Shown: positions 90-14,498, counted from the stretch's first letter. The stretch is 30,221 bases of DNA from Terriglobia bacterium (GCA_965218585.1 CBDCLE010000016.1:1-30221); one strand, 5' to 3'. Translations and numbers: made by a program. The notes: generated by a model from the letters alone, not told the origin.

Positions 90-1455
90 GAGGTCATTAC
101 AAAAGGTGTGTAAAAGTCATCAGGCGGCGGCCTTCGATTTCATCACGACTCTGATGCCGTCAGCGAATTGCTGACCATCATAGACCTCTTGTAAGAGTTC
201 GGATCCTTTTTAAGTGTCGCCAAGCCTTCTCAGCGACACGTAGTAGCTTCCAGATCATTGCCGTTGCATTCTCGACACGCTTGAATCGGCGAGCGGCGTT
301 GGTGCGGAGGCGAACCATGTCGAAGGGCGACTCGACGATGTTGGTCGTTCTCAGATGCACCCAGTGTTGTTTCGGGAACTCATAGAAAGTAATCATCCGG
401 TCCCAGTCCCGCAACAGCGTCTCACCCGCTTTGGGATAGTTCTTCTCATATCGGCGGACGAACTGATCCCGCTTTCGTTCGCAGGCCGCGCGGGAGTTCG
501 CGAAGGCCATCCCATGAAGCAGCTGTCTGGCCGCGGGCTGCTCGGTCTTCGGCAGATGATCGACCACGTTGATCGACTTGTGGTTCCAGCAGCGTTGTTC
601 CTGGCCCTGGGGCTGTTGCTCGGCCAGCGCGGACCAGATGCCCAGATGACCGTCCGCGACAGTCAGCCGTCCCAGCTTCAGGCCCCGTCTCTGGAGATTG
701 CGCAGAATGCGGCTCCAGGACTCCTTGCTTTCCCGCTGCCCGCTCTCACAGGCCAACACCACTTTGCGCCCGTCTGACAAGGCTCCGATGATCACCCGCA
801 ATGCCGCTCGCTCTTTCGCGATCCCCGCTTTCACGTACAAGCCGTCTGCCCACTGGTACACGACCTCGAGGCCGGACAGGTCCTGCTGGACCCACTCGTC
901 ATACTCCAACTGCCAGGTCGATTTCAGTCGTTGGATCGATGCTCGCGACAACGGAGCGCCAGCGCCAAGCAGTCCGCGCATGGCCTGCTCGAAGTCCCCT
1001 GTGGCCAGACCGTGGAGGTAGAGATCGGGAAGTAGCTCGCCCAGCTGTTTCGATTTCCGTCGAAAATACGGCAGGATCTGACTCTCGAACCGCTCGGCGG
1101 TGTTTCGAACCCGAGGTCGTCGAACCTCCATCGTACCGTTCATCATTGCGAAGCGTCGCGGCTTCCCGTGACCGTTCCGGTATCCTCGTCGATTCGGACT
1201 CCGCTCCGACTTTTCCCGACCCAGAAATTGAGTGACTTCGTCCTCAAGCAGCTCCTGTAGCCAGACTTGGACCCGGGATCGCGCCCAGTCCTCCAAACCT
1301 TCATACGCGTTCGTTGACGCCACTGATGCCGGTATGTTCTTCTTCTTCATGGGTGGTGTACCTTTCTCCCGATTGCTGCCGGGATTGCTTACGGTTTCGA
1401 ATTCACTGAAAGCGTACACCGCCTTCTCTTTTTACACACCGATTGGAACGACCTC
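90..1455 (-). mobile_element. IS256-family insertion sequence, complete (1366 bp)
   Basis: Imperfect terminal IRs GAGGTCATTACAAAAGGTGTGTAAAA (90-115) and the reverse complement of 1430-1455 (GAGGTCGTTCCAATCGGTGTGTAAAA). Perfect 8-bp target-site duplication GGCCGCAC at 82-89 and 1456-1463. Confidence 0.95.
120..1350 (-). CDS. IS256-family (Mutator-type DDE) transposase with a 1-nt frameshift near the C-terminus
   Basis: Motifs YRNGHGKPR, LYLHGLATGDF, WADGLY, QRCWNHK, LRTTNIVES. Removing one T from the run at ~207-211 restores a typical C-terminus (GSELLQEVYDGQQFADG...KAAA*) ending at 120. Start at MKKKN (1350) is inferred. Confidence 0.9.
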
Positions 1456-1466
1456 GGCCGCACTAG

Positions 1467-1492
1467 AAGATGATTTAACGGGCGTTGAGAAT
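1467..1492 (+). repeat. Recombination-site-like repeat copy 1 (spacer plus right arm only)
   Basis: AA-GATGAT-TTAACGGGCGTTGAGAAT matches copies 2-4. The left arm is absent even after removing the IS256 in silico. Confidence 0.75.
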
Positions 1493-1546
1493 GGCAGGTC
1501 GGCAATTCTCAGTAGATCAGAAAGCACACCTCGACAGTCGTCGCGG

Positions 1547-1576
1547 AGAAAAGGCACCCCATTAAGAGGTGCCCTT
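1547..1576 (-). terminator. Probable intrinsic terminator of the 1716-2028 gene
   Basis: GGCACC/GGTGCC stem followed on the minus strand by a T run. Confidence 0.5.
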
Positions 1577-1715
1577 GCCGTTGGACAGAACTACCTGCGC
1601 CCTCTTACTGATGAAAACGGAAAGGGTGGCGAAGTTCGGACACCCAAGCAGCCTGTGCGAAAGAGAGAACTCGGTCTGTTAGTCCTCCTGCTACGGAGGC
1701 AACGTTTGTGACTAC

Positions 1716-2028
1716 TTAGGGAGCGGTACAAGTCCCAGCAATGTGCTGGATTGCGGTGGCCTTCAAAGACTTCGTTGCCGTCATCCTCTGTCATCATCAT
1801 CCCGGTCACGGTCACCTCATGATTCGACGAATGCGGCTCTAGAGCATCGAGGCCGGTCACGATAATCTCCTCACCAGAACTTTTATCGGTCAGGACGTAA
1901 TACCCTTCTCTGTCAGCCTTGTTGAAGCAGCCCGTTGCGCTTTTCTCCTCTTCTTGCGCGGAAATCGCCAACGGCAGCAGAACCAGCGAGATTACCAAAA
2001 CACAGAAAACAATTATTCTTCTCTCCAT
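1716..2028 (-). CDS. Small secreted protein (signal peptide; TGC...HEVTVTG...C beta/OB-like pattern), frameshift at ~1762
   Basis: Hydrophobic N-terminus with an ISA-Q cleavage site and GGAGG RBS upstream. Shifting frame after EVFE gives ATAIQHIAGTCTAP*, supplying a second Cys to pair with TGC. Confidence 0.7.
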
Positions 2029-2175
2029 CGCGGACCTCCTATCAGTTTTAGATGGGACGACATAATCCTACTACGAGCATCCGCTTAATGGCCACACCTT
2101 TCCGCCTCGACTCTAAGTTGTTGGTTTTAAGGGATGACTTAACAGACTCGGTTGTTTCTGTCCTAGGGTAGGAAA

Positions 2176-2213
2176 GTTCAACGTCCGACAAGATGATTTA
2201 ACAGGCGTTGAGA
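2176..2213 (+). repeat. Recombination-site-like repeat copy 2
   Basis: GTTCAACGTCCGACAA-GATGAT-TTAACAGGCGTTGAGA (16-6-16 imperfect inverted repeat). Confidence 0.85.
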
Positions 2214-2296
2214 ATGGATTTCACGTCGTGGTCAAACACGTCAACGCGCAGCAGGTTCGCGTCGGCAGACGAACCGGATCCAGTGGGGGTTCGTTT

Positions 2297-2352
2297 AAAT
2301 GAAAATGACTTTCATTTGCATATTGACACTTCCGAATGCCGAACGAAATAAT
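2297..2352 (+). promoter_or_regulatory. Fur-box-like operator next to a sigma70-type promoter
   Basis: Palindrome AAATGAAAATGACTTTCATTT (2297-2317), whose core TGAAAAT-G-ACTTTCA resembles the Fur 7-1-7 TGATAAT-N-ATTATCA. TTGACA at 2323-2328 and AATAAT 18 nt downstream. Confidence 0.65.
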
Positions 2353-2399
2353 AATGGGTCCCGGATTCATTCCACCTATCAGTCAGGGAGCCAAATTCC

Positions 2400-3029
2400 A
2401 TGCGTTTTTTAACTTTGTTCACAGTGTGCCTGGGCCTTATGGTCGGCACCGCCAGCGCCCAGGTCGGCGAGAACCAGGGGCTCGTCAATCCCAACCTGGC
2501 AACCGCGTCGGAACTCCGTGCGCTGCCCCATGTCACCGACGCTGTGGCGGCGGCCATCGAAAGCAACCGGCCCTTTCTTTCCGCAATCCAGCTCGACGGG
2601 ATACTTGCGCGCTCCCTCGGCGAGTCCCAGCGCAGCGAGTTGTACTCCCGCCTGTTCCGCCCCATGAGTCTCAATACCGCAAGTGGAGACGAAATCAAGC
2701 TGATTCCCGGCATGAGCGACCGGATGGTGCATGAATTCGAGGAGTACCGGCCCTACACCAGCATGGAACAGTTCCGTCGTGAAATCGGCAAGTACGTCGA
2801 CGACGACGAAGTGGCGCGCTTCCAGCAGTACGTGTTCGCGCCCATGAACCTCAACGACGCCTCCTCGGAGGACTTCATGACCATTCCGGGCATGACAGCG
2901 CGCATGGTGCGCGAATTCGAGGAATACCGGCCCTACACCAGCATGGAACAGTTCCGCACGCGAAATCGGCCAAGTACTGTCGATGAGGACGAAGTGGCGC
3001 GCCTGGAAAGCTACGTCACGCTGGACTGA
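2400..3029 (+). CDS. Secreted helix-hairpin-helix (ComEA/HHH_3-like) repeat protein
   Basis: Signal peptide (ASA-Q). Three 'NLN.AS..E/D...IPG' HhH modules. Near-identical internal duplication of EFEEYRPYTSMEQFR. Confidence 0.8.
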   Translation: MRFLTLFTVCLGLMVGTASAQVGENQGLVNPNLATASELRALPHVTDAVAAAIESNRPFLSAIQLDGILARSLGESQRSELYSRLFRPMSLNTASGDEIKLIPGMSDRMVHEFEEYRPYTSMEQFRREIGKYVDDDEVARFQQYVFAPMNLNDASSEDFMTIPGMTARMVREFEEYRPYTSMEQFRTRNRPSTVDEDEVARLESYVTLD

Positions 3030-3040
3030 ACAGTTGGCGA

Positions 3041-3679
3041 GTGAGCACGACGTGCGGCCGTTGTCTCGATGGACGCGTCTGCTGAACGCATACTGGCCTC
3101 TGTGGACACTCCTAGGTTCTGCCGGGCGCCTACTGGACCTATATCTACTGGCAGGGCACGAGTTTTTACGGGGAGTACCTGCATGCCACAGGGGAACTGG
3201 CCGCACGGTTGCTGATCGCCGCCATGGCGGTGACGCCACTGCGGCTGATGTTCCCGAATACGGCCCTGGCGGACTGGCTGCTGCCCCGGCGCCGCCAACC
3301 TGGGCGTGGCCACGTTCGGCTATGCCCTGCTGCATACCGGGGCCTATATCATTCGCCAGCCGTTCGCGAGGATCGTCGAGGAAGCCATGGAAAATCGCCC
3401 ATGTGGACCGGCTGGCTGGCGTTTCTCCTCATGCTGGCGCTGGCCGTTACCAGCAACGACGCCTCCGAGCGCCTCATGAAGCACGGCTGGAAAGCCTTGC
3501 ACCGAGCGGTCTATGCCGTCGCCTTACTGACCTATGCGCATTGGGTTCTGTCCGCATTCAATCCCGTGCCCGGCTACATCCACCTGGGTGTACTGGCAGC
3601 GCTGGAATCTGTGCGGGTATGGCGAAGCTGGACGAATCGGCGGGAAGCGCAGGAGATCGGGGCTTCCTCCACGATGTGA
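3041..3679 (+). CDS. Ferric reductase-like transmembrane protein (MsrQ/YedZ family), several frameshifts
   Basis: Motifs across frames: L.VTPLR, RRRQ.G, LLHTG, LALAVTSND, GWKALHRAVY, YAHW (heme-ligating His pattern). Start is approximate. Confidence 0.8.
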
Positions 3680-3813
3680 CGATCTTCGGATATAGAAAAA
3701 TTGCGATGGCTGCCGTTTCTGCCGCGGCTCAAGAATCCGGTGGCCGACTCAGCGAGATTGGGTGAGAATACGAGGACTGTACCCACTTGCTCTTGCAACT
3801 AGCGACCCTCCGC

Positions 3814-4536
3814 TCATCTACCCGGTAACGCTGAATTATTCCGGATTGAAATGTCCCTGTACCACACTTCGGACGCGGCCACCTTCATGCAGCTGCAGAC
3901 ATACGAGACCACTTTCTGGAACTTGCCCTTCTCGACTGTCGTTACACCATTGAGCCGAATCTCGATTCGTGTCCCGACGGCCGTGATGGCGACATCGTTC
4001 CAGTCGTCCCTAAGCAGGACTCCTTCAACGACAGCGCGGTCAGCCACTGCTAAGAGCCACCGATTGAATCGGAATATCGGGATGCGTCCTTGGCGAAACT
4101 CGTCCAACAGACTACCCCAAAGAGGGTATGGTCGAACCGTGTCGGTAGGCACCGCGTTTGATAATCTTGAGATCAACTCCCCTGCGATGAATCCCATGTC
4201 AGCTTGGTAACCCGCCACTTCGCTCGAATCGGGAATTCTCTGACTTCGGAAATGTACGCCAGCGTTCTCTCTTCCCCTGATGAGGGCCCTCAGACGCAGT
4301 TCGAAGTTATCAAACTCCTCGGTCGTGCAGAGGTATTCGTTTTGAGGAATTGGCGCTTCCAGCGTGCCTCCAACGATAGCTCCGTCAACAACCCGAAAGG
4401 CGGCGCTAGCTCCGTCCCACCCGTTAAGCGACCGGCCATCAAAAAGCGCAACAAAGTCGCTTGCCTGTCCACTGGCATGAGAGGCCCCTGCGAACAGCAC
4501 CATCAGCACCAAGAATCCCGACCTGATCACTGCCAT
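3814..4536 (-). CDS. DUF1080 / 3-keto-disaccharide hydrolase-family secreted protein, probable indels in the C-terminal part
   Basis: LFDGRSLNGW, YLCTTEEFDNFELRL, NAGVHFRS, GYQAD, DDWN, EVWYRDISI; signal peptide. Confidence 0.85.
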   Translation of the reverse strand: MAVIRSGFLVLMVLFAGASHASGQASDFVALFDGRSLNGWDGASAAFRVVDGAIVGGTLEAPIPQNEYLCTTEEFDNFELRLRALIRGRENAGVHFRSQRIPDSSEVAGYQADMGFIAGELISRLSNAVPTDTVRPYPLWGSLLDEFRQGRIPIFRFNRWLLAVADRAVVEGVLLRDDWNDVAITAVGTRIEIRLNGVTTVEKGKFQKVVSYVCSCMKVAASEVWYRDISIRNNSALPGR

Positions 4537-4588
4537 TAACCTCGATCATTTGAAGTCGATAACAGCAGCACGCTGCAAAAAAACCAAA

Positions 4589-4626
4589 TCTCAACGTCCA
4601 ACAAGATGATTTATCAGGCGTTGAGA
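4589..4626 (+). repeat. Recombination-site-like repeat copy 3
   Basis: TCTCAACGTCCAACAA-GATGAT-TTATCAGGCGTTGAGA. Confidence 0.85.
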
Positions 4627-4714
4627 ATCATTTTCATGGTCGTTCATGGCACGGACACCCGCTCCTCCAGTTCTTCAAAAACGCGGGCATGGTTGGTGAT
4701 GGGCCGGGTGCAGG

Positions 4715-5428
4715 TTATGGCCGATCCACCGACGGTTCTGGCTCCGCGTTTCGGGCAACCCGGAAGCCGTAGTCGGTATAACGGTACTCGGGCGGAAGAC
4801 TGCTGCGATGGGCGGTCCTGGACGCCTTGACCGCGTGCCTCCAGGAGCCACCACGCGAAACGCGCCGGGTGCCTGAGCGTGGACCCTGGGGATTGTGTCC
4901 GGGTGAGACCCTATAATAGTCTGCCGCATACCAGTCCAGACACCATTCGTGAACGTTGTCACCCATGTTGTAAAGTCTGTAACCGTTGGGACCGTGTTCA
5001 GCGACGCGGCGGGGCGCAATCCACTCGTCCTGATAATACGGAAGAGTGTCGGGCGCCTCATTACCCCATGCGTAATCTGCGGCATCGTCACCTCCCCTGC
5101 AGGCTTTCTCCCATTCCGCCTCGGTCGGCAATCGATACTCCCGTCCACTGGAACGAGACAACCAATCGCAGTAAGCAACCGCATCAAACCAGTTCACACC
5201 GACCACTGGCTGTTCAGGATGTGAGAACGCAGGGTCAGCCCAATTGCGGGGTTCTTCGTGATCCGTCTCTTCTAGGAACCGGACATACTCACACCGCCTC
5301 ACCGTTGTCGACGCGATCTCGTATCCGTCGGTGTGCACCCGGTGCCGCGGTCGCTCCTGTTTGAAGTGACTATCCGATCCCATCCAGAACGGGCCTGAGG
5401 GCACGCGGATCATCGAACCCGGAGTCAT
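4715..5428 (-). CDS. Formylglycine-generating enzyme (SUMF1/EgtB/PvdO) family protein
   Basis: GPFWMGS, ERPRHRV, PVVGVNWFDAVAYCDW, YRLPTEAEWEKACRGG, NGYRLYNMGDNVHEWC, RGGSW, GFRVA. Confidence 0.92.
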   Translation of the reverse strand: MTPGSMIRVPSGPFWMGSDSHFKQERPRHRVHTDGYEIASTTVRRCEYVRFLEETDHEEPRNWADPAFSHPEQPVVGVNWFDAVAYCDWLSRSSGREYRLPTEAEWEKACRGGDDAADYAWGNEAPDTLPYYQDEWIAPRRVAEHGPNGYRLYNMGDNVHEWCLDWYAADYYRVSPGHNPQGPRSGTRRVSRGGSWRHAVKASRTAHRSSLPPEYRYTDYGFRVARNAEPEPSVDRP

Positions 5429-5534
5429 CCTCAGACCATAGTCGGACAAACCAAAAGGGTAAAGCTTTTCGTAGAAGACAGGTTGGGTGTTGAAATTCAG
5501 CAACCTTATAAGAAACCGCTGTATTTCGGCCAAT

Positions 5535-5572
5535 TCTCAACGTCCGACAAGATGATTTGTCAGGACTTGACC
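5535..5572 (+). repeat. Recombination-site-like repeat copy 4 (divergent right arm)
   Basis: TCTCAACGTCCGACAA-GATGAT-TTGTCAGGACTTGACC. Confidence 0.85.
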
Positions 5573-5679: not shown

Positions 5680-6465
5680 TTACATACCGGCCACCACATA
5701 CTTCGTGAACGCAGAGCCCGCATCGCTGAGCGAGGCCGGTCCCTCGGCCACGAAGACGTTACCGTCCTCGTCCACTCCCACGCCCTCTCCCGTCACGCCA
5801 TGGTTCGGCCGGCTGTCGGACTCCCACGGCGGAATGAAGCCCACGAGCACGTCCCGATCGACAGGTCCGATGCGGACGCCGTTCCTCCAGTTGATGTGCC
5901 GGAGCCGATTGGACTCGGAGTCGATGGCGTACACCATCTCGTCCTCGGTGATGAAGAGGTCGCTGATGCGCCCGTACTGATAGCGCGATTCCAGGTAGTT
6001 ACCCTCTTGGTCGAAGATCTCGAGGCGGTGGTTGCCACGGTCCGCGACCCAGAGCCGGCCCTCAGCGTCGAACTCCAGGGCGTGCGGCGTGCGGAACTGA
6101 CCGTGATCCGTGCCGATCTCTCCCCACTCCATGATGTACTCGCCGTCGGCGGAGTATTTGACGATGCGGCCGGTCAGCCCCGCCGCGCGGGCCTCGGCCA
6201 TCTGTTCGTCTGTCGTCAAGTTCTGCCCGGTGTGGCCGTCTGCGACGAAGATGCTCCCGTCGGGCGCGACGATCACGTCAATGGGCTGGTTGAGGTGATC
6301 GGGGCCGTTCCTGGGCTGGCCGGCGATACCGAGGCTGAGGAGCAGTTCTCCGGTCGGGCTGAACTTGTGGACTTGGTGACCTTTGGTGCCGTCGTCGTTG
6401 CCGGCGAAGTCCGTCACCCAGACGTTTCCCTCGCCGTCCGCGTAAATGCCGTGGGGCGTCACGAA
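5680..6465 (-). pseudogene. NHL-repeat beta-propeller protein (PAL-like), 5'-truncated at the adjacent IS
   Basis: Repeats PHGIYAD..GNVWVTD, PIDVIVAPDGSIFVADG, PHALEFD..GRLWVADRGNHR. It begins mid-repeat (FVTPHG) with no signal peptide, right at the transposase stop. Confidence 0.8.
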
Positions 6466-6467
6466 GG

Positions 6468-7739
6468 TTAGCCGGGATCGGGGAGTTCCGCCTCAATCGG
6501 GGCTCGGTCTGCATCTGCGTCGCAGTTCGGGGACACAAGGGCGGCGCGCACGATGTCGTCCGTTAGCGTGGGAGAGGCCAGTTCCTTCGCATGTCTCCAG
6601 AATGCATCCTGGAGTTTCTCAAGCTGTCGTAGGAGATCGACCGGATCCGAACGTTCATAAATCGCAGCAAGGCGAACGCGAACCTCCGGGTCGAGCGCAT
6701 CCGAATTCGAGAGCCGTTGATAGGGTGTTTGCGCGATATCGTAGCGTTTCGTCACCCGGGATCCATCGCGAGTCTTCGTCGTGAGCTTCATGGACGGCTG
6801 GAAGAAGTTCACGTAGAGCCGGACCACTCGGTAGAGCTCGGCAAGCTGCCTGTATGCCAGTGAGCCTTCGTAGCGGTCGTAGCCGACCAATTGGCGGACG
6901 ATCGAGCCGTTCTTCTGTTCGACGAAGCACTGGTCGTTCTTCCGGCGCGCCCGGCCTCGGGTGAATTGAATCGTTTCACGCTCGCAGTAGGCGAGGAGTC
7001 CGTAGTTCATGAACTCGGAACCGTTATCCGTGTCCAGGCCGACAAGCTGAAACGGAAGGATCTGCCGTGCCGTCGTGAGCGCCTGCAGAATGTCCGCCTC
7101 CGTACGCCGTAGCAACGCCAGACATTCGGTCCAGCCGGTCGCCACGTCGGTCAGTACCAGGGTGTGGAGGAAAGGGCCTTCCGAGTTCCCGCCGCAGTGT
7201 GCAACCAAGTCCGCTTCCATGAATCCCGGCCGCGTGTCCGCCCAGTCGGCGAATGTGCGAATCGGAACGCGGTGTTTGAGTAACTGTCCGGACTTGGTGG
7301 TGGTCTTGCCGTGCGGTCGATGATCGAATCGGAATTGACGGAAGATCCGATCAGCCGTGGCGGCGCTCAGCTCAAGCAGATCCGCCCGCGTTTTATCAGA
7401 CAATGACAGATGCCCGTGACGCTCCATGGTCGGGATCAGCTCCGGCAGAAACGGAACGAGCCGTTTGCCACAGACATCATTGACTGTGCGCCAGGCCGCG
7501 ATCAGGGCGGCCTGCACCGCGGGGCCGTATCGACGGACCCGGCCGCGCGGTTGCCGTCGGGGCCGTTCGCCCCTCAGAATGTCGTTCAGAAGCCGTGTCG
7601 CGTGCTTCCGATGGAACCCGGTCGATTCAAGGAACTCATCCAGGATTCGCTTCTTCTCCGGTCGCGCCGCATTCTTGTAGCGAACCGCCGTTCGTAGAGC
7701 TAATTCTCGCCTTGCCGCAACAGTCATGTGTGTCCTCAC
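6468..7739 (-). CDS. DDE (rve integrase-core) transposase, ISNCY/IS481-related type
   Basis: GFMEADLVAHCGG, LTDVATGWTE, LDTDNGSEF, KNDQCFVEQKN catalytic motifs; N-terminal HTH; GGAGG upstream. Confidence 0.88.
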   Translation of the reverse strand: MRTHMTVAARRELALRTAVRYKNAARPEKKRILDEFLESTGFHRKHATRLLNDILRGERPRRQPRGRVRRYGPAVQAALIAAWRTVNDVCGKRLVPFLPELIPTMERHGHLSLSDKTRADLLELSAATADRIFRQFRFDHRPHGKTTTKSGQLLKHRVPIRTFADWADTRPGFMEADLVAHCGGNSEGPFLHTLVLTDVATGWTECLALLRRTEADILQALTTARQILPFQLVGLDTDNGSEFMNYGLLAYCERETIQFTRGRARRKNDQCFVEQKNGSIVRQLVGYDRYEGSLAYRQLAELYRVVRLYVNFFQPSMKLTTKTRDGSRVTKRYDIAQTPYQRLSNSDALDPEVRVRLAAIYERSDPVDLLRQLEKLQDAFWRHAKELASPTLTDDIVRAALVSPNCDADADRAPIEAELPDPG

Positions 7740-7765
7740 TTCCCACCTCCGTTCTCATAGAGTTG

Positions 7766-7823
7766 GGTAACATTTCTAATGAGGCAACAACCCTCAGTTC
7801 GGTAACATTTTCAATGAGTCAAT
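7766..7823. repeat. Two 23-bp direct repeats forming the upstream end of the rve element
   Basis: GGTAACATTTCTAATGAGGCAAC (7766-7788) and GGTAACATTTTCAATGAGTCAAT (7801-7823). No matching end is visible near 6468. Confidence 0.7.
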
Positions 7824-7909
7824 GCGGCCGGGAGTTTTGATTGTCGCTGATCACAGAGGTGACCTCCCGATTCCAGTCCTCGCCGAGGCTGTTGAGATAG
7901 AATGGCCGA

Positions 7910-8316
7910 ATGAAGCGGTGGATTCTAGCGCTCGCCATAGCGATTGCCATCCAGTCGTGGCAGCCCATGCTCATCATTCGATCGCGGGCATGTACGACAA
8001 CGCTCAGCAGGTGACCATAGAGGGGATCGTCAAGCAGTTTCAGTTCGTCAATCCACATCCATTCGTGACGATCGAGGTCACTGGTGAGAGTGGTGGCGCA
8101 GAGCATTGGCTGCTTGAGATGGACAACCGTTCGGAGCTTGTCCGGGCTGGTATCAACAGCGAAACACTGAAAGAGGGCGATCGGATCACGATCATGGGCA
8201 GTCCCGCCCGCCGCGAATCACAGCGTCTCTACATCCAGAGGCTTCATCGTTCCAGAGATGGTTTCGGGTACGAGCAGGTTCGTAATAGCCCACGACTTCT
8301 TACGCCATCGCGGTGA
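7910..8316 (+). CDS. DUF6152-family secreted protein, frameshift in the signal peptide (~7950)
   Basis: MKRWILALAIAIAI joins PVVAAHAHHS.A.YD in another frame; F.FVNPH, W.LEM and LKEGDRITI.G.P motifs. Confidence 0.8.
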
Positions 8317-8493
8317 GTTTTCGATTATCGCCCCCGCGCTCGATGGCGGCCCTTCCTACCTGTAACAGCATCCAATAGCCAGCACAGCGGTAGATCGGCG
8401 AGATGTCCGAACTGCAAGCACGAGATCAGCGAGAAGACGTTGGTGGAGAGAGGATAAACGCCTGCAAATCACGCCGCCGAGGACGTGGGAACC

Positions 8494-9051
8494 TTACAGT
8501 CGATTTATTCTGTATTGGAGGTAAAACAGTTGCAAGAAGAAGGTCGCAATGCCAGACATCGACGCCCCCGCCTTCCATTCCAATGAGAAGTGATCACTCA
8601 ATATATTCTTTACGGCAAAGCATTGGATGATAAGGATTATTGCAGCGATGCTATTCAGGAGGTCGTTAATCAGATCAAGAGTTTCCATCAATTCTACAGC
8701 TTCAACAAATTCAGCCCCTCCTGCAGCGAATTCAAACAAGAGACTTGCACTAAATAGGACGATCGCAACAATGAATACCCCTGAACCAAGTTTTCGCTTG
8801 GAGTTCAGCTTGTTTAAGGCCTTCCTTCTGGTGAGGAACCACGCAGGATAGTAAATTCCAGCAGTGATGATCACGAATAAGATGACAAGCAGAACACTGG
8901 TCCGCTTTATCTCATGAGGGGGCGCGCTATCTCCTTGGTTGCCATGCAGATATGAGACTGCCATCTCTTTCGTCGTGAAATCATAGCCGCAGTCACAACG
9001 CGCTGCTGTGTCAGGGTTGACCAAGTTGCAGTTCGGGCAATTTACGGACAT
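8494..9051 (-). CDS. Membrane protein with N-terminal zinc ribbon and DUF4234-like TM domain
   Basis: CPNC...CDCGY, IITAGIY.PAW and YLQYRIN; several TM segments; visibly lower GC than the neighbours. Confidence 0.72.
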   Translation of the reverse strand: MSVNCPNCNLVNPDTAARCDCGYDFTTKEMAVSYLHGNQGDSAPPHEIKRTSVLLVILFVIITAGIYYPAWFLTRRKALNKLNSKRKLGSGVFIVAIVLFSASLLFEFAAGGAEFVEAVELMETLDLINDLLNSIAAIILIIQCFAVKNILSDHFSLEWKAGASMSGIATFFLQLFYLQYRINRL

Positions 9052-9119
9052 TGAGGTTTCTCAGACCTCAGTGGTCACTTCAAAACCGGCCAACGGGCAT
9101 GGCCCGGGACGGTGTAGTT

Positions 9120-9875
9120 CTACCCCTTTCGTGGGGGAGTCGGCAAGCCCGTTTTGGTGCGCCAACTCCGAGGCCCGCACTTGAGGATGTGGCCGTGATG
9201 GAGCAACCGATCCAGCATCGCAGTCACAGCCGCGCTGTCGCCGAGTAGTTTGCCCCAGTCTTCGACGGGCCGATTCGATGTCAGTAACGTGCTGGTTCGT
9301 TCATACCGTCGCATAACGATCTCGAGAAGTTCCTCTGCTGCAGTCGGGGGGAGCTTCCGTATCCCCAGGTCGTCGATGATCAGCAACGGGACCGTGGCCA
9401 GAGCCTCCATAAACTCCTTACGGGTCCCGTCGATGGTGGCTTCGGCGATGTCGTCGAGAAGGGCATGGGTTTCACGGTAGACGACCCGATAGCCTTGCTC
9501 GATGGCGGCCAGACCGATGGCCTGAGCCAGATGACTCTTGCCGGTGCCGGGTGGACCGAGAAACAAGGCGTCTTCGTGTCTGGAGATGAATGCGGCCGTG
9601 GCCAGATCGAAGACCAGACTGCGATTCATCTTCTTGTTGAAAGTGAAGTCGAAGCTGTCCAGCGTCTTGTGGGGATCGCGGAACCGGGCTTGCTTCCGCC
9701 GGCGTTCCAGCAGTCGGATGCTGCGACGGTCCAGTTCGTCGGAGACTAGGCGGGAGACCAGATCGATCGGCGCCATGGGTTCGGTCTGGGCCTGGTGGAG
9801 TCGTGTTTCCAGGACCTCGGCGATGCCGCCGAGACGGAGTTGTCGGAGAGCCCGCTGGAGTTCAATGAGATTCAT
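9120..9875 (-). CDS. istB: IS21 helper AAA+ ATPase IstB
   Basis: Walker A GPPGTGKSH, Walker B LLIIDDLG, TSN and LDRLLH; 4-nt overlap with the istA stop. Confidence 0.95.
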   Translation of the reverse strand: MNLIELQRALRQLRLGGIAEVLETRLHQAQTEPMAPIDLVSRLVSDELDRRSIRLLERRRKQARFRDPHKTLDSFDFTFNKKMNRSLVFDLATAAFISRHEDALFLGPPGTGKSHLAQAIGLAAIEQGYRVVYRETHALLDDIAEATIDGTRKEFMEALATVPLLIIDDLGIRKLPPTAAEELLEIVMRRYERTSTLLTSNRPVEDWGKLLGDSAAVTAMLDRLLHHGHILKCGPRSWRTKTGLPTPPRKG

Positions 9876-11320
9876 GATTGTTCCTGCTCCTGGATCTTGA
9901 GGTTGATGAGATCGCGATACTGGGTCAGTTCACGAATGAGAGGATCGACCTGACGGAGTGCGAGTGGAGGTCGCCGCTCCAGATAGCGGCGGAGGAAACG
10001 ATACTCGTAGACGTGGAGTTCCAGTGCCACAGCCGAAGCATCCTCGACGGCGGACACACCGTACCTCTTGGCCAGGGAGAGTACACCCAGGATGCGGCGG
10101 ACCGCAGCCTTCCCCTGTCGGCGATGAATCCCCTCACATAGCGTGCCGATATGGGTTCCGGCGCGGCGGGCGCGGGCGAGCAGTTGCACGGTAGTTAGGG
10201 GCGTCTTTTTGGGATTGTCTTCGGGGCGGACACGATATCCACCGCGTTTTTGACGGACATGCTCCCGCAGGAGTTGATAGGTGTTCGGGTCGAGGATCCG
10301 GACGTGGAGAGTGTCCCACTGCACTTTGACCGTTCGTCCGATCCAACCGGGCGGTAAACCGTAATAGGCCGCTTCGACTTCCACACAACCGTCGAGATGG
10401 ACGACACGCTGCCCGTACTTGTAGTAGCGGAAGGGTTCGATCGGCAGCCGCTTTAGCGACGGCTTCTCTTCAGCGAACATGGCCCCCACCTGCCGCTTGG
10501 TCGTGCCGTGGATGCGGGTGTCGGCCCACCGGTCCAGATACGCCTGAGCCTCCTCGAGGCTCTCGAAGCGCTGTCCCTTCAGTGGGGTCTTCTGGGCGTG
10601 TCCCACCCCGGACTCCACTTTCCCTTTGCGGTCTGGGTCGCGCACCCGGCATGGCAGGGCCACCACGCCGTAGTGAGCCAGCACATCCCGGAACAGCGGA
10701 TTCAGCGTGGGGTCGTAATACTCCGGGTCGATCACACCCTCGCGCAGGTTGTCCAGGATCATGAGACGGGGACTGCCACCCAGGCGCCGGAACGCGGTCT
10801 CGTGCAGCTGGGCCCAGATAAGGGAACTGGATTTGAAGCTCAGCAACCGCACGGATTTGCGGCTGTAGCCCAGCGTCATCACGAACAGCCGGGTCCGCCG
10901 GTACTTGCCGGTCTTCGGATCCCGAACCATGGGTCCGGTTCCGTAGTCGACCTGGGCTTCTTCTCCAGGGTCGGTTTGGATGATGCCGACCGCTACGGGA
11001 GACCGCACGCCCCGGAGTTTGCGAACGAACCGCTTGACCGCTTCGTAGCTGCTGGCAAAGCCATGATCCGTAACCAGGTCCTGCCAGATCGCCATCGCGT
11101 TGCGGCCACGCTCCAGCGCCTGTTCGATCGTCTCCCGGTACGGCTCGCAGGAACTGCTCGACGGTGGGCTCGACGACTCTGCCGGGACCGGATTCTCGGC
11201 CTCCGAGTCGGTGGTCACTTCGTTGGCCGGTTTTGAAATATCGGAATCGCCAACCCTTTCAACGACACCACTTACGCCGTCCGGGTCGGTGGTCACCTCG
11301 TTGGCCGGTTTTGGGTGACC
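9872..11320 (-). pseudogene. istA: IS21 transposase IstA lacking its N-terminus
   Basis: PGEEAQVDYG, LDNLREGV, PDRKGKVESGV, RIHGTT. The IR runs directly into the KPANEVTTD linker, with no start codon or HTH inside the element. Confidence 0.85.
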
Positions 11321-11327
11321 GCCGAGG

Positions 11328-12935
11328 CCAGTCCCAGTCCATCCAGCATCTTTCCATGGCGAGGATGTACTGAACTTCCGGGAGCGCATCGTTCGCCTTA
11401 ATGGCCCGCTCGATAGCCTCTCTTGCCCGGGGTCCCGCCTCAGAGGGGGCGCTGAAATTCATCTGCTGGCGAGCGGCCCATACGGCTGCAATGCCTGCGT
11501 AACCCAGCGCCGGCTCCTTCCTCCGCGCGCGCTCGAAATATTCGAGCGCAAGGTCCAGTTCAGCTGGCGTCAGTTTGTTCCAATGGAAATACCCTTTCTG
11601 GTAGGCATCGTAAGCTTCTGGATCGACCTGGCGGGTGTTGGCGAACTGATCCTGTTCTTCGGGCGTCAACTCAACGCTGATCTGCTCCGCAATCGCCAGC
11701 GTCACTTCGCTTTGGACAATGAGTACTTCCGCCAAGTCCCGGATATAGGAGTCTCCCCAGAGGATTTCTTCTGTTCGCGCATCGATCAGCTGTACCGTGA
11801 TGCGCAGTTGATCGCCAAAACGGCTGGCCGAACCTTCGACGAGCGCCCCCACCCCGAGTTCCCGTGCGATCTGGGAAATCGACTTATCGCTGTTCCTGTA
11901 ACGGGAGGCCGATGTACGTGAGATCACTTTCAGCGCCCGGATCTTCGCAAGCTCCGTGATGAGGCTCTCGGTCAACCCCTCGGAGAAATACTCCTGGTCA
12001 GGATTTCCTGAGCCGTTGGTCAGCGGCAACACCGCGATTGATGGACGCGTTCTGGCCGAGGAGGATGCAATACGGACGGACGGCTGACCGGCCTCGACCC
12101 GCTCGAATTCATGGACGGCGTCGGTGACGCTCGGCAGCCTGCGCTCCGAATCCTTCTCGAGGCACTGCCGCAGAAGCTCGTGCATCCGATCCGGAGTCGA
12201 TCGTGGCAAGGCGTCCCAATCTGGCGCCCGCTCCAGAATCGCAGCAATCGTATCCGCAAAGGTCTTGCGGGAAAACGGCTGTTTACCCGAAAGCAACTCG
12301 TATACGAGGCAGCCGAATGCCCACACATCCGCACGGGAATCCGTTGGCTCACCGCGGGCTTGCTCAGGGCTCATGTAGGCGGGTGTGCCCAAAATCTGGC
12401 CGGCCTCTGTAGCCACACTGAGCGTCTCCTGTTGCGAAAATTCGAGGTTCGCCCCAGCCAATACGTTCTTCGCCAGACCGAAATCCAGCACCTTGATGCG
12501 ACCCTCGGGGGTGAGCTTGATGTTGGCGGGCTTGATGTCCCTGTGCGCAATCCCCCTTGCGTGAGCCGACTCTAATGCCTCGGCAATCTGCAGGCCGACC
12601 CTCAGCACCTCGTCCACTGGAAACGGCCCGCTGCGATCGAGCCTCTCGGCCAGTGTTTCCCCTTCCACCAGTTCCAATACGATGTAACTACCGTCCTCCG
12701 ATTCCTCGAGACCATAGATTGACGCGATGTTGGGATGGTTGAGTGCTGCCAGCATTTTCGCTTCTCGCTCGAATCGAGCCCGGCGATCGGAGGACGCAGC
12801 AAACTCTTCAGGAAGGGTCTTAATGGCCACTTCACGACCTAATTTCGTGTCACGCGCACGCCACACTTCCCCCATCCCACCCTTGCCTAAGAGCGTTGAG
12901 ATCTCGTAGTGGCCAAGTTTGGTGCCAGATTCCAT
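11328..12935 (-). pseudogene. Hanks-type Ser/Thr kinase with TolB_N-like and TPR domains, 3'-truncated by IS21
   Basis: LGKGGMGEV, VAIK, HRDIKPAN, DFG, YMSPEQ; SIAVLPL.N..G.PDQEYFSEG domain; the TPR region is cut at WMDWDW. Confidence 0.9.
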
Positions 12936-13022
12936 GATTTTGAAGTGTCGTGCGGTCATAGACCCCACCTACAGAAAATATGGCTAAATATAACTATAGG
13001 TGGGAGTTATTCGCAAGAAAAG

Positions 13023-13060
13023 CCTCAAGTCCTCGCAAACGACCTTGTCAGACTCTGAGA
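13023..13060 (-). repeat. Divergent, inverted copy 5 of the 16-6-16 site
   Basis: Minus strand reads TCTCAGAGTCTGACAA-GGTCGT-TTGCGAGGACTTGAGG; the arms resemble copy 4. Confidence 0.55.
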
Positions 13061-13215
13061 TCCTGATTTCAGGAACTCAAAGCTTAAACCTTGCCTTATG
13101 TCATTAATTTGAGCTATTTAGACACCATGGATTGACCTGCCCTGGCCTCGTACGCGTGGGTTATGTTGCGGGGCGAGGAACCTTCGACACAGAGCCACAA
13201 CGAGGAGGGCAGGTC

Positions 13216-14346
13216 ATGAACAAGTGTAGTGCATACGTTGGACTGGACGTTCACAAGGACACGATCGCGGTGGCGGTAGCGCTGCCCGGACGTGAGGCGC
13301 CGGTGTACCGGGGCGAGATCAAGAATCAACGCAAATCGCTGCTGCGACTCATTCGCAGCCTGAGTCCGCACGCAGAGGTGTTGAGCTTCTGCTACGAGGC
13401 GGGACCGTGCGGGTATGGGGTGTATCGAGAGATCATCGACACCGGCCACTATTGCGAGGTGGTCGCGCCGAGCCTGATCCCGCGGCGCGCGGGGGAGCGA
13501 GTGAAGACGGATCGGCGCGACGCGGTGAAGCTGGCGCGGCTGCATCGGTCGGGGGAGCTGACGGCGGTGTGGGTGCCCGACGAGGAGCAGGAGGCGATGC
13601 GCGACCTGACGCGGGCGCGCGAGGACATGAAGGCGATCGAGGCCAAGGCTCGGCAGCGACTGGGGGCGTTTCTGCTGCGTCATGATCGAGTGTATCGGGA
13701 AGGCAAGAGCCGGTGGACGCAACGGCACTTTCGGTGGCTGGAGGAGCAGCGGTTCGAGCATCCGGTACAGCAGGTGGTGTTTCAGGAATACGTCGATACG
13801 GTGATGGAGGCGCGCCGCCGCGTGGCGGGCCTGGAAGGGCAGATGCGCGAGGTGTTGGAGCAGTGGTCGCTGCGTCCGATGGTCGAGGCGCTGATCGCGT
13901 TGCGCGGGGTGGATGTGGTCACGGCCATGACGGTGCTGGCCGAACTCGGGGACCTGACGCGTTTTGATTCGCCGCGCGAGCTGATGAGCTTTCTGGGGCT
14001 GGTGCCGAGCGAGCACTCCTCGGGGCCGCGGCGGCGCCAAGGAGCCATCACGAAAACAGGCAATGGACACGTGCGCCGCGTGCTGGTTGAATCGGCCTGG
14101 AGCTACCGGCTCCCTGCGCGCAAAACCAGGCACTTGAGATGCAAGGCGAGTGCGGCGCCGCCAGCAGTGCAGGCCATCGCCTGGGCAGCCCAGAAGCGGC
14201 TGTGTGCGCGGTACCGGCATCTGTATAGCGCGGGCAAGGCGAAGTGCGTGGTCACCACCGCGGTGGCCCGCGAGCTGGTGGGGTTCATCTGGGCGATTGC
14301 TTGCGAGGTGATGGGCCGAGCCCATGCAACGCGGGCGCGGAGCTGA
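13216..14346 (+). CDS. IS110 DEDD recombinase/transposase
   Basis: YVGLDVHK, CYEAGPCGY, KTDRRDA, GLVPSEHSSG, ITKTGN, AVARELVGFIW; GGAGG RBS. Confidence 0.95.
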   Translation: MNKCSAYVGLDVHKDTIAVAVALPGREAPVYRGEIKNQRKSLLRLIRSLSPHAEVLSFCYEAGPCGYGVYREIIDTGHYCEVVAPSLIPRRAGERVKTDRRDAVKLARLHRSGELTAVWVPDEEQEAMRDLTRAREDMKAIEAKARQRLGAFLLRHDRVYREGKSRWTQRHFRWLEEQRFEHPVQQVVFQEYVDTVMEARRRVAGLEGQMREVLEQWSLRPMVEALIALRGVDVVTAMTVLAELGDLTRFDSPRELMSFLGLVPSEHSSGPRRRQGAITKTGNGHVRRVLVESAWSYRLPARKTRHLRCKASAAPPAVQAIAWAAQKRLCARYRHLYSAGKAKCVVTTAVARELVGFIWAIACEVMGRAHATRARS

Positions 14347-14498
14347 GAGATGGGCCGGAGTTCTCCACACCTTGCCACTGCTCCGCCGTGTATTCGAAGC
14401 ACGCGGTGCCATGGACAAGGTGTGGAAAACTCCTCCGACGCCTCCCCGGGCGCAATGCCATCATGCGCTTCCGGAGCAAGGCTGGACCCAAAAAACGT

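What the first reader, a model, noticed from the sequence alone, without database searches (positions are those of the whole stretch)
1467..5572. Gene modules separated by directly repeated 16-6-16 sites: candidate recombinase-driven cassette array
Seen in the sequence: four same-orientation intergenic copies of TCTCAACGTCCRACAA-GATGAT-TTRWCRGGCGTTGAGA (1467, 2176, 4589, 5535). The arms are imperfect inverted repeats and vary between copies, while the asymmetric 6-bp spacer is invariant. The copies bracket unrelated cargo: [small secreted protein], [HhH + MsrQ-like + DUF1080], [FGE-family]. Established knowledge: inverted arms ending in AA/TT around a conserved 6-8-bp spacer is the architecture of tyrosine-recombinase sites (dif/XerCD 11-6-11, loxP), where spacer identity is needed for strand exchange. 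The arms do not match the canonical XerD arm TTATGTTAAAT, and the sites lack attC RYYYAAC/GTTRRRY ends. Inference: this is an integron- or pdif-module-like gene accretion system with its own site, served by a recombinase encoded elsewhere.
Basis: partly seen in the sequence, partly recalled or inferred. Interest (0 to 1): 0.9.

Follow-up and report, generated by a model that had tools for sequence, protein, structure and literature searches.

The report
Repeated 38-bp sites bounding shuffled gene cassettes
A 38-base symmetric DNA site, repeated about 80 to 150 times per genome in one genus of Terriglobia (Acidobacteriota), marks the joints between unrelated gene cassettes that are shuffled within and between species, much as in an integron, but the site is not a typical integron site and its enzyme is unknown.

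Summary
The repeat is real, but only partly as described. In the window, 2 copies are full (2176, 4589), one has a variant right arm (5535), and one is a half-site (1465-1490). A fifth, inverted variant lies at 13023-13060.

Genome-wide there are 71 such sites plus 19 "head" variants. They are clustered, intergenic and co-oriented. A profile search finds them in all 5 genomes of the genus, once in a second genus, and in none of 15 other relatives.

- Segments between sites behave as cassettes.
- 9 of 16 full-length homologous cassette pairs share nothing beyond either bounding site.
- Cassettes shared between species are 90.5-96.5% identical, where core genes are about 76%.
- Cargo is diverse.

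These points argue against a simple reading:
- Breakpoints are not confined to GATGAT.
- The inner 20 bases are linked to neither flank.
- There is no hairpin covariation.
- No recombinase sits beside the arrays.
- This genome has no IntI. Three congeners have one, each more than 20 kb from any site.

The site fails several attC, pdif and REP criteria.

Best reading (0.5): a cassette system that works like an integron, with its own double-stranded site. Main rival: passive REP-like repeats that act as recombination and IS hot spots.

The parts
1465..1490 (+). Half-site (positions 13-38 of the 38-bp element, centre GATGAT at 1469-1474). The left arm is missing.
   Evidence: Preceded by GGCCGCACT, not by the left arm.
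2176..2213 (+). Full element, class A right arm (..AACAGGCGTTGAGA).
4589..4626 (+). Full element, class A right arm.
4645..4682 (-). Non-coding remnant of the 3' end of a kinase/PD40-propeller gene (reads FEELEERVSVP-stop), just upstream (in gene direction) of the element at 4589. The FGE gene itself ends at 4715.
   Evidence: 18 of 71 elements in G000 carry such a remnant.
5535..5572 (+). Full element, class B right arm (..GTCAGGACTTGACC).
13023..13060 (-). Head-type (class C) element, centre GGTCGT, inverted relative to the array, 55 nt upstream of the kinase gene.
   Evidence: Polarity statistics.
1591..2028 (-). Cassette gene: 145-aa protein with a signal-peptide-like N-terminus and no Pfam family.
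2400..3679 (+). Cassette genes on the opposite strand: HHH_3 repeat protein (2400-3029) and Ferric_reduct/MsrQ-like protein (3209-3679). The frames are broken, probably by assembly indels.
   Evidence: One search shows 1-nt differences at 3114, 3297, 3394, 3398 and a 183-nt repeat unit.
3814..4536 (-). Cassette gene: DUF1080 / 3-keto-disaccharide hydrolase family.
4715..5533 (-). Cassette gene: FGE-sulfatase family.
5680..12968 (-). First segment of the array, between the head site and the first A/B site. It holds a Ser/Thr kinase (11259-12968) cut by an IS21-family element (istB 9120-9875, istA 9872-11389), DUF4234, DUF6152 (+ strand), an rve-type IS (about 6451-7900) and an NHL-repeat ORF (5680-6462).
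90..1455 (-). IS256-like (Mutator family) insertion sequence beside the half-site. About 70 copies in the genome.
13118..14759 (+). IS110-family insertion sequence 57 nt from the head site.
   Evidence: The other copies seen are not next to elements.

Best explanation
The 38-bp elements are the boundary sites of a genus-specific mobile gene-cassette system that works like an integron cassette array but uses its own site. An array is polar. It begins with a head site (centre NNTCGT) upstream of the first gene. Co-directional genes or small gene groups follow, each followed by a cassette site (centre GATGAT) in the inverse orientation. INFERRED: a sequence-specific, probably dimeric, recombinase encoded elsewhere binds the two 16-bp arms (fixed TCAA, TCCG and AA) and exchanges strands inside the site. 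Recombination between two direct cassette sites would release the genes between them as a circle carrying one site. That circle could re-enter at any other cassette site, in the same genome or, after transfer, in another species. The different centre of the head site would keep it from recombining with the inverted cassette sites, which would otherwise flip the first gene. SHOWN: the anatomy, the clustering and polarity, the independence of the DNA on the two sides of a site, the recurrence of whole cassettes with different neighbours, and their excess similarity between species. NOT SHOWN: the enzyme, the exact exchange point(s), and any circular intermediate.
For: (1) Copy number and distribution. 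There are 57 copies at <=9 substitutions in G000. The profile model R1 finds 83 in G000, >=150 (capped) in G001, 16 in G002, 146 in G003, 5 in G004, 1 in G007 and 0 in 15 other relatives. The reversed-pattern control gives 0. (2) Array structure in G000. 63 of 71 cores are intergenic. Of 44 neighbouring pairs less than 7 kb apart, 37 are co-oriented and 7 are not. 60 of 71 have a neighbour within 7 kb, against 13.5 by random placement (maximum 24 in 200 trials). Median spacing is 1.9 kb. Of 19 head-type sites, 14 have an inverted cassette site as the next site downstream and 0 have a direct one. (3) Independent flanks. Among 270 elements from 4 genomes, 142 pairs share the abutting left flank, 52 share the right flank and only 5 share both. 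(4) Whole cassettes move. Of 176 inter-site segments, 16 pairs are homologous over their full length, mostly to within 0-2 nt of the cores. Of these 16, 9 have no homology beyond either bounding site, 3 have only short non-abutting matches, and 4 lie in larger duplications. Example: the DUF3024 cassette (G000 C4:188841-189266) is 92.5-94.8% identical in G001 and G003, with unrelated neighbours in all three genomes. (5) Exchange between species. Inter-species cassette pairs are 90.5-96.5% identical, and an amidohydrolase cassette is 94% identical. The core genes next to the window array are 74-80% identical, 76% to G001 and G003 over 4.8 kb. (6) Cargo is unrelated: amidohydrolases, esterase, Mo-oxidoreductase, PhoX, methyltransferases, glyoxalase, cytochrome c, an outer-membrane barrel, DUFs and kinases. 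(7) The site looks like a protein-binding double-stranded site, not a hairpin: conserved tetrads in dyad symmetry, no covariation (83.1% paired against 83.2% in shuffles), and weak folding (z -0.2 to -2.1). (8) There is no linkage across the invariant centre (positions 14 and 25, V=0.11), and a sharp loss of linkage between positions 2 and 7. So exchange does happen inside the site.
Against: No recombinase gene is consistently next to arrays or head sites. G000 has no integron integrase. The breakpoints do not fall at one point. The left flank stays with positions 1-2 (14 of 14 families) and the right flank with positions 28-38 (8-9 of 9), but positions 7-26 match at the random-pair rate for both. 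In a 99.8%-identical cassette pair, both bounding cores differ in the arm nearest the cassette. A single crossover at the centre or at one end does not predict this. No clean pair of an empty site and an occupied site was found (3 candidates, none clean). No usable circular or deletion junction was seen: the joints between elements have only 27-38 nt on one side, on contigs. Several unrelated insertion sequences sit in or beside the centre of the element, as they do in passive repeats such as REP. Cassettes are large (median 1986 nt). All comparisons are between species or within one genome; no strain-level series was available.
Confidence: 0.5

Rival explanations
1. The elements are passive dispersed repeats of the REP or intergenic-mosaic kind. 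They arose from the 3' region of an expanded kinase/PD40-propeller gene family and spread. Their many near-identical copies then serve as substrates for homologous or short-homology recombination and gene conversion, and as preferred landing sites for insertion sequences. On this reading cassette shuffling is a by-product and there is no dedicated enzyme.
For: The breakpoints are spread over the element and its conserved flanks, and the inner core is a mosaic, as expected from heteroduplex repair or conversion. 18 of 71 elements in G000 carry a remnant of a gene end coding ..WFEELKERVPVP-stop. In a few cases this is the real end of a PD40 or kinase gene. The single copy in another genus also follows a gene ending ..ELERLVPVP-stop. 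At least four kinds of insertion sequence abut or interrupt the centre. No recombinase is associated.
Against: Uninterrupted identity between two copies is usually only about 10-24 nt, which is short for RecA-driven exchange. The exchanged cassettes carry almost none of the donor's element, the opposite of what crossovers within flanking homology should give. The strict polarity of arrays, with an inverted head site of a different centre (14 of 19 inverted, 0 direct), is not expected of passive repeats. Neither is the near-invariant asymmetric centre. The two Y1 (RAYT-like) genes of G000 are not flanked by the element; the nearest copy is 2.1 kb away. There is no hairpin covariation.
Confidence: 0.23
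2. The elements are true integron attC sites. The arrays would be clusters of attC sites lacking an integrase (CALINs), formed and shuffled by the IntI present in the genus, acting in trans on the folded single strand.
For: In gene direction the element reads TCTCAA(C/G)...GTTGAGA, a 6 of 7 match to each attC end box, including AAC/GTT (consensus recalled). Polarity is as in integrons: gene first, then the site, with the better conserved GTT box distal. Linkage to the downstream flank is lost between positions 2 and 7, which is where G|TT cleavage would fall. Intact IntI genes (440-458 bits, cut-off 265) are present in G001, G002 and G003, and a broken one in G004. They have no cassette array of their own nearby. 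Site spacing fits the 4-kb clustering rule of IntegronFinder (passages of PMC4889954). Acidobacterial chromosomal attC sites are known (passage of PMC8352920).
Against: The core is 38 bp, while attC sites are 57-141 bp with an unpaired central spacer, extrahelical bases and a variable terminal structure. attC sites are recognised by structure and share only 3 conserved nucleotides (passages of PMC5371416). Here the sequence is conserved and the structure shows no covariation. An attC travels whole with its cassette, but here the inner core is linked to neither side. G000 has 83 sites and no IntI at 95.5% completeness. IntI-positive G009 and G011 have no such sites. No element lies within 20 kb of any of the three IntI genes.
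Confidence: 0.17
3. The elements are binding sites of a regulator, insulator or termination factor (or an RNA motif) placed between genes of accessory islands. Their position at cassette joints would be secondary.
For: The orientation follows gene direction. The head variant sits 55-100 nt upstream of first genes, with a conserved downstream flank. The dyad symmetry with fixed tetrads suits a dimeric DNA-binding protein.
Against: This does not explain why unrelated DNA is joined exactly at the sites, or why whole inter-site segments recur elsewhere. There is no Rfam family (the only hit, sR2 at E=0.27, lies elsewhere). Hairpins are weak, with no T-run. The genes served are unrelated and are not conserved between species.
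Confidence: 0.1

Closest known systems
Integron cassette arrays and CALINs (attC sites; IntI)
   Same: Arrays of co-oriented imperfect palindromes less than 4 kb apart, with one or a few co-directional, functionally unrelated genes between them. The end boxes resemble RYYYAAC/GTTRRRY. Site sequence is homogeneous within a taxon. The cassette pool is shared between species. Arrays occur without an adjacent integrase, as in CALINs.
   Different: The core is 38 bp, not 57-141 bp. It has no unpaired central spacer or variable terminal structure. Sequence rather than structure is conserved, with no covariation. The inner core does not travel with the cassette. There are many small arrays per genome, each with an inverted head site of another centre in place of attI. 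IntI is absent from this genome and far from the sites in its congeners. Cassettes are about 2 kb.
dif (pdif) modules of Acinetobacter plasmids, moved by XerC/XerD (seen only as search listing and abstract starts)
   Same: Gene modules bounded by short sites of the form arm, 6-bp centre, arm. They are served by a recombinase encoded elsewhere, and modules are shuffled between replicons.
   Different: The arms are 16 bp, not 11 bp, and are unlike the candidate chromosomal dif of this genome. Sites are direct repeats rather than alternating C/D and D/C orientations (recalled). The arrays are chromosomal. The breakpoints are not confined to the centre.
REP/BIME repeats and REPIN-RAYT systems (recalled)
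   Same: High-copy, extragenic, taxon-specific imperfect palindromes at gene ends, used as targets by insertion sequences and as sites of rearrangement.
   Different: No stable hairpin and no compensatory changes. No flanking Y1 transposase. Strict polarity in arrays with a distinct head variant. Whole gene cassettes are exchanged at the sites.
Simple recombinase sites such as loxP/FRT (13-8-13) or invertase sites with a central dinucleotide (recalled)
   Same: Dyad-symmetric arms around an asymmetric, invariant centre that sets polarity. A second class of site with a different centre would be incompatible.
   Different: The site is longer, with two conserved boxes per arm. There are hundreds of sites per genome. 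No cognate enzyme is known, and linkage breaks also occur outside the centre.

Membership tests
Integron attC site / CALIN | End boxes with the conserved triplets AAC ... GTT (RYYYAAC / GTTRRRY) | tested here: inconclusive
TCTCAAC and GTTGAGA each match 6 of 7 positions in class A copies. In class B copies the upstream box reads (T/G)(C/G)TCAAG. PMC4889954 passages confirm that AAC/GTT is the best conserved part.
Integron attC site / CALIN | Length 57-141 bp, folding into a hairpin with an unpaired central spacer, extrahelical bases and a variable terminal structure | tested here: not met
   The core is 38 bp. The best pairing is 6 + 4 + 5 bp with two 1-nt bulges and a 6-nt loop. Folding energy is -4.6 to -9.6 kcal/mol, z -0.2 to -2.1. 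Feature list from passages of PMC5371416.
Integron attC site / CALIN | Recognition by structure: sequence varies while pairing is kept | tested here: not met
   83.1% of cells are paired against 83.2% in shuffles. The covariation score is 0.038 against 0.038, with 228 of 500 shuffles as high. Positions 14/25 pair in 35% against 34%.
Integron attC site / CALIN | An integron integrase (IntI) with attI next to the array, or at least in the genome | tested here: not met
   G000: best TIGR02249 hit 83.7 bits against a cut-off of 265. G001, G002 and G003 have IntI, but no element within 20 kb and no repeat array beside it.
Integron attC site / CALIN | The attC stays with its cassette; crossover at G|TT of the distal box | tested here: inconclusive
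   The downstream flank is linked to positions 1-2 and not to position 7 onward, which fits G|TT. But positions 7-26 are not linked to the upstream cassette either.
Integron attC site / CALIN | Clusters of co-oriented sites less than 4 kb apart with co-directional genes | tested here: met
   37 of 44 neighbouring pairs are co-oriented, and median spacing is 1910 nt. Rule from PMC4889954 passages.
pdif / Xer modules | 11-6-11 sites resembling the host's dif, with XerC and XerD arms | tested here: not met
The only good dif-like site in G000 (C10, minus strand, near 176902; arms ATGTCGCATAA / TTATGTCAAGT, centre TGAGTA) is unlike the element.
pdif / Xer modules | Modules flanked by sites in alternating orientation | tested here: not met
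   Sites in an array are direct repeats. The rule is recalled.
REP / REPIN-RAYT | Stable hairpin-forming palindromes with compensatory changes | tested here: not met
REP / REPIN-RAYT | A Y1 (RAYT) transposase gene flanked by the repeats | tested here: not met
   There are two PF01797 genes in G000. The region around the C10 gene was read and has no flanking copies; the nearest element is 2.1 kb away. No copy is near the C3 gene in the genome-wide hit list; only its gene list was read.
REP / REPIN-RAYT | High-copy, extragenic, taxon-restricted | tested here: met
   Sites are clustered and lie between non-conserved genes, and synteny breaks at the sites.

The most novel reading that the evidence does not exclude
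A previously undescribed site-specific gene-cassette system of Terriglobia. It would consist of many small polar arrays per chromosome, each opened by an inverted head site (centre NNTCGT) and built from cassettes ending in a 38-bp double-stranded site (centre GATGAT). The sites would be recognised by sequence, by a recombinase that is neither adjacent nor an integron integrase. Exchange would occur at more than one point in the site, and the cassette pool would circulate among species that are only about 76% identical in core genes.
Probability: 0.33. Interest if true: 0.9.

Novelty: new variant of a known kind. Interest (0 to 1): 0.72.

Why it matters
If the sites are recombination sites, they point to a second way, beside integrons, in which bacteria store and trade single genes as cassettes. 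It would occur in a phylum that is abundant in the environment but poorly studied genetically. It would explain how these genomes gain and lose secreted and periplasmic enzymes.

Integron-finding software tuned to longer, structure-defined attC sites may miss such arrays (inference; not tested). The system offers a defined 38-bp site, with an apparently incompatible variant, for which the enzyme could be sought.

If instead the sites are passive repeats, they are still a clear case of a short repeat organising accessory-gene islands and attracting several insertion-sequence families.

Tried and rejected
- Hairpin, terminator or RNA motif: weak folds and no T-run, no covariation, and no Rfam family at the sites. 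My first impression of GAGAA/TTCTC against GACAA/TTGTC covariation did not survive counting.
- Remnant as the true end of every upstream gene: in most copies the WFEELKERVPVP-stop stretch is a short out-of-context remnant. The FGE gene of the window ends 81 nt before its element.
- IS256-like element as the cause of the truncated copy 1: its 8-bp target duplication shows it inserted beside an already truncated site.
- IS110 element next to the head site as a partner: its other copies are not next to elements.
- IS91-like elements with a 301-309-aa tyrosine recombinase, which abut head-type half-sites in G001/G003, as the machinery: G000 has no Y2 transposase, and G002 has 28 matches but only 16 sites.
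- RAYT: see the membership test.
- Truncated integrase genes near two arrays (G000 C2:80299; G001 C9:1225954): these are 231-233-aa catalytic-domain fragments. Read by eye, their printed sequences look unalike; no alignment was run.
- Serine recombinases: none beside arrays.
- dif-likeness: rejected.
- Orthologous locus: G001 has other elements and other genes there, G003 has one degenerate copy, and G002 and G004 have none within 20 kb. No shared cassettes, so no gain or loss series.
- Empty-site against occupied-site search: 3 candidates, none clean.
- Reads: only Logan contigs were served. Joints between elements have 27-38 nt on the shorter side and 'between: not known', as repeats give. 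Parts without cover in X8, X10 and X1 mean nothing.
- Viral contigs: 0 matches. Metagenome contigs: 13 short stretches, not studied further. The genome-contig scan gave only 5 stretches because near relatives are left out of it.
- The first flank comparison was swamped by a chance match inside an IS and was not used.
- Neighbour test by cassette index: mostly NA, replaced.
- Print searches: I found no description of this element in two searches (Acidobacteria, integron, attC, gene cassettes; Acidobacteria, palindromic, repeat, cassette, tyrosine recombinase, genomic islands). The supplements of PMC8352920, which list acidobacterial attC sites, were closed and may bear on whether these sites are already catalogued as attC.

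Full report
**1. The observation**

The window is a whole 30.2-kb contig (C16) of a 4.55-Mb, 26-contig genome, 95.5% complete. Public records that hold the motif are titled Terriglobia bacterium MAGs, so I take the organism to be a member of that class of Acidobacteriota.

The repeat is real but less regular than described.
None is expected by chance.
- The copy at 5535-5572 shares the left arm and GATGAT but has another right arm.
- The copy at '1467' is a half-site (positions 13-38, 1465-1490). Its left arm is replaced by unrelated DNA.
- The IS256-like element at 90-1455 lies beside that half-site with its own 8-bp target duplication, so it did not cause the truncation.
- A fifth, inverted and diverged copy lies at 13023-13060.

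Pfam confirms the unrelated cargo.

**2. A genus-wide repeat family**

G000 holds 57 copies within 9 substitutions of the 38-mer. A stricter census gives 71 cassette-type (A/B) and 19 head-type (C) sites.

A 24-nt pattern at 2 or fewer mismatches gives these counts:

| Genome | Copies |
|---|---|
| G000 | 51 |
| G001 | 138 |
| G002 | 7 |
| G003 | 92 |
| G004 | 1 |
| Two genomes of a second genus | 1 each |
| The other 24 of the 31 genomes searched | 0 |

The reversed pattern gives 0.

A sequence-only profile built from 73 copies gives 83, at least 150 (capped), 16, 146 and 5 for G000-G004, 1 in G007, and 0 in 15 further relatives. There are no matches in viral contigs.

**3. Anatomy**

In 267 distinct copies the fixed positions are T3-A6 (TCAA), T9-G12 (TCCG), A15-T24 (AAGATGATTT), C27, G29-G30 and T33-A36 (TTGA). 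Positions 7, 8, 13, 14, 25, 26, 28, 31, 32, 37 and 38 vary. The collecting pattern covers positions 8-24, so their conservation is partly imposed.

The arms form a dyad, but pairing is not selected.
- The share of paired cells equals that of column shuffles (83.1 against 83.2%).
- The covariation score is not raised.
- The variable pair 14/25 is complementary in 35% of copies, against 34% expected.
- Single-strand folds are weak.
- No Rfam family matches.

This points to recognition of double-stranded sequence by a protein, rather than a hairpin.

Right arms fall into two classes: A (..AACAGGCGTTGAGA + AATCATTTTCA) and B (..NTCAGGACTTGA(CC/GA) + TCGAAAATCAGGG).

Head-type sites have the centres GATCGT (8), TGTCGT (7), GGTCGT (3) and GTTCGT (1).

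**4. Arrays are polar and follow the genes**

All figures here are unless noted.
- 63 of 71 cores are intergenic by my simple gene caller.
So in gene direction a site follows one gene and precedes the next.
- Neighbouring sites less than 7 kb apart are co-oriented in 37 of 44 cases.
- 60 of 71 have a neighbour within 7 kb, against 13.5 expected.
- Of 19 head sites, 14 have an inverted cassette site as the next site downstream, 5 have none within 12 kb, and 0 have a direct one.

In the window, read on the minus strand, the order is:
1. head site (13060-13023)
2. a kinase cut by an IS21-family element, plus other genes and an rve-type IS
3. site 5572-5535
4. FGE gene
5. site 4626-4589
6. DUF1080 (with the HhH and MsrQ-like genes on the other strand)
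7. site 2213-2176
8. small secreted protein
9. half-site.

**5. Origin**

About a quarter of cassette sites (18 of 71) are preceded in gene direction by some 40 nt that read ..NWFEELKERVPVP-stop.
- In a few places this is the true end of a PD40-propeller or kinase-PD40 gene, for example C2:549004-550113 and the 520-aa PD40 protein before C9:80359.
- Elsewhere it is a short remnant behind an unrelated gene, as behind the FGE gene of the window (4645-4682).
- The single copy in a second genus also follows a gene ending ..ELERLVPVP-stop.

The family therefore probably began as the downstream region of one member of this expanded gene family (inference).

**6. The sites are joints between independently assorting DNA**

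I collected 270 elements from G000 and from array regions of G001, G002 and G003. Among them, 142 pairs share the abutting left flank (at least 80% over at least 100 nt), 52 share the right flank and 5 share both.

I defined 176 inter-site segments, with a median length of 1986 nt. Sixteen pairs are homologous at 85% or more over at least 80% of both members, most of them to within 0-2 nt of the cores. Beyond the bounding sites:
- 9 pairs have no detectable homology on either side
- 3 have only short, non-abutting matches
- 4 lie in larger duplications.

Nine of the 16 pairs are between species, at 90.5-96.5% identity.

The 4.8 kb of core genes next to the window array is 76% identical to G001 and G003, and 74-80% to G002 and G004. 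Other conserved genes matched by an array query were 77-85% identical.

So cassettes, like the sites themselves, have moved between species recently. The homologues of the window's own cassette genes in the congeners are only 66-71% identical and have no elements nearby. At the orthologous locus the congeners carry other genes.

Cargo in four other G000 arrays is equally mixed.

**7. Where exchange happens**

This is the weak point of any simple model. The numbers below count flank-sharing families.

| Shared flank | Families | Positions that match | Positions at the random-pair rate |
|---|---|---|---|
| Left flank only, at least 93% identical | 14 | 1-2 in 14 of 14 | 7 (8 of 14, baseline 0.47), 25 (7 of 14, baseline 0.35), 37 (4 of 14, baseline 0.39) |
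| Right flank only | 9 | 31-38 in 9 of 9; 28 in 8 of 9 | 25 (3 of 9), 14 (4 of 9) |

Association between variable positions gives the blocks {-1, 1, 2}, {13, 14} and {25, 26, 31, 32, 37-42}. There is nothing between 2 and 7, or between 14 and 25.

In a 99.8%-identical cassette pair within G001, the left bounding cores differ at positions 1-2 and 25-26. The right bounding cores differ at 7, 14, 25 and 37.

Thus only the outer boxes (TCTCAA on one side, roughly positions 27-38 on the other) stay with a cassette. The inner 20 or so bases assort on their own. Three accounts remain open, and I cannot choose among them:
- exchange at two or more points, for example at the symmetric G|TTGAGA positions of either strand, plus the centre
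- frequent conversion between sites
- general recombination with patchy repair.

**8. The enzyme**

G000 has 11 tyrosine recombinase genes over the Pfam cut-off, plus one weak fragment. Among them are an XerC/XerD-like pair. There are also several resolvase-family genes and two Y1 transposases. None is beside an array or a head site. G000 has no integron integrase.

G001, G002 and G003 each have an intact IntI (also G009 and G011, which lack the sites), and G004 has a broken one. No element lies within 20 kb of these genes, and no repeat array adjoins them.

The tyrosine recombinases that do lie in arrays of G001 and G003 belong to IS91-like elements inserted at head-type half-sites. G000 has no such element.

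Several other insertion sequences also end at or in the centre of the site. The centre is therefore a favoured target, as is known for REP and attC sites (recalled).

**9. Comparison with known systems**

The arrangement works like an integron or CALIN:
- co-oriented sites less than 4 kb apart
- co-directional mixed cargo
- homogeneous sites within a taxon
- arrays without an integrase
- end boxes that match 6 of 7 positions.

But the site fails the structural definition of attC: 57-141 bp, an unpaired spacer, extrahelical bases, a terminal structure, and recognition by fold (passages of PMC5371416, and PMC4889954). It also fails the rule that an attC travels with its cassette.

It is not dif-like, and its sites are direct rather than alternating, unlike dif modules (abstract starts only; rule recalled). 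It is not a REP with a RAYT.

I therefore file it under no known family. I describe it as a new variant of the kind 'gene cassettes bounded by short recombination sites', with the caveat that a passive-repeat explanation keeps about a quarter of the odds.

**10. Limits**

- Genes were called with a home-made codon-bias caller.
- The window assembly has single-base indels relative to short-read contigs.
- Only array regions, not whole genomes, of G001-G003 were compared.
- Pairs within flank families are not independent.
- No strain-level data and no raw reads were available.
- The search of earlier findings and paper supplements were closed.

Noticed in passing
window 90-1455: IS256-like (Mutator family, PF00872) insertion sequence with terminal inverted repeats and 8-bp target duplications. 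About 70 copies in the 4.55-Mb genome, which also holds some 35-40 copies each of two or three other ISs (471-aa, 439-aa and 186-aa ORF families).
   Followed up: partly
window 13118-14759: IS110-family element (DEDD_Tnp_IS110 + Transposase_20), 4 full-length and 4 partial further matches in G000, here 57 nt from the head-type site. The other copies are not next to elements.
   Followed up: partly
window 9120-11389 and about 6451-7900: An IS21-family element (istA/istB) overlaps and apparently truncates the Ser/Thr kinase gene at 11259-12968. A second, rve-type IS (about 14 copies) lies at about 6451-7900.
   Followed up: no
window 1605, 1649, 1765, 3114, 3297, 3394, 3398; 2795-2979: Short-read contigs of the best-matching public runs lack one base at each of these places and lack one 183-nt repeat unit of the HhH gene. 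So the frameshifts in the HhH and MsrQ-like genes are probably assembly errors, not pseudogenes.
   Followed up: partly
window 20883-20942 and 22614-22673 (also 25899-25928): A different 60-nt direct repeat (85% identical) lying just downstream of (20883) and upstream of (22614) the minus-strand gene 21016-22443. Unexplained.
   Followed up: no
G001:C9:714608-715549, G002:C41:5422451-5423395, G003:C2:3040327-3041268: Intact integron integrase genes (440-458 bits to TIGR02249) with no detectable attC-like repeat array within 20 kb ('In0'-like). A broken copy lies in G004:C20:787885-788202.
   Followed up: partly
L102, L103, L104, L065, L043 (G001 and G003): Multi-copy elements encoding a 301-309-aa tyrosine recombinase followed by an IS91-family Y2 transposase. 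Four of the five examined begin right after ..CGACAA-(TGTCGT or GATGAT)-TTGAAC, that is, inside a head-type or cassette-type site; the L102 copy instead follows ..TTAGAAC some 55 nt downstream of an intact cassette site. G002 has 28 Y2-transposase matches.
   Followed up: partly
G001 and G003 array loci (e.g. L044, L052, L054, L057, L061; L080, L082, L085): Two further repeated insertions end at fixed points of the site: after GATGATTTAT, and before AGAAGATGATTT. So the centre of the site is a common IS target.
   Followed up: partly
G000 C10, minus strand, near 176902: Single good candidate for the chromosomal dif site (ATGTCGCATAA-TGAGTA-TTATGTCAAGT).
   Followed up: no
G000 C2:99644, C2:100560, C4:51214: A third, rare centre variant of the element (GGGGAT, with right inner arm TTCCGAGG).
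   Followed up: no
L027:9700-9840 and other class B copies: The conserved gene-end remnant itself contains a 7-bp palindrome (AAGGAAC..GTTCCTT) over the codons for KERVPVP, giving a second small hairpin 11-20 nt before the 38-bp core.
   Followed up: no
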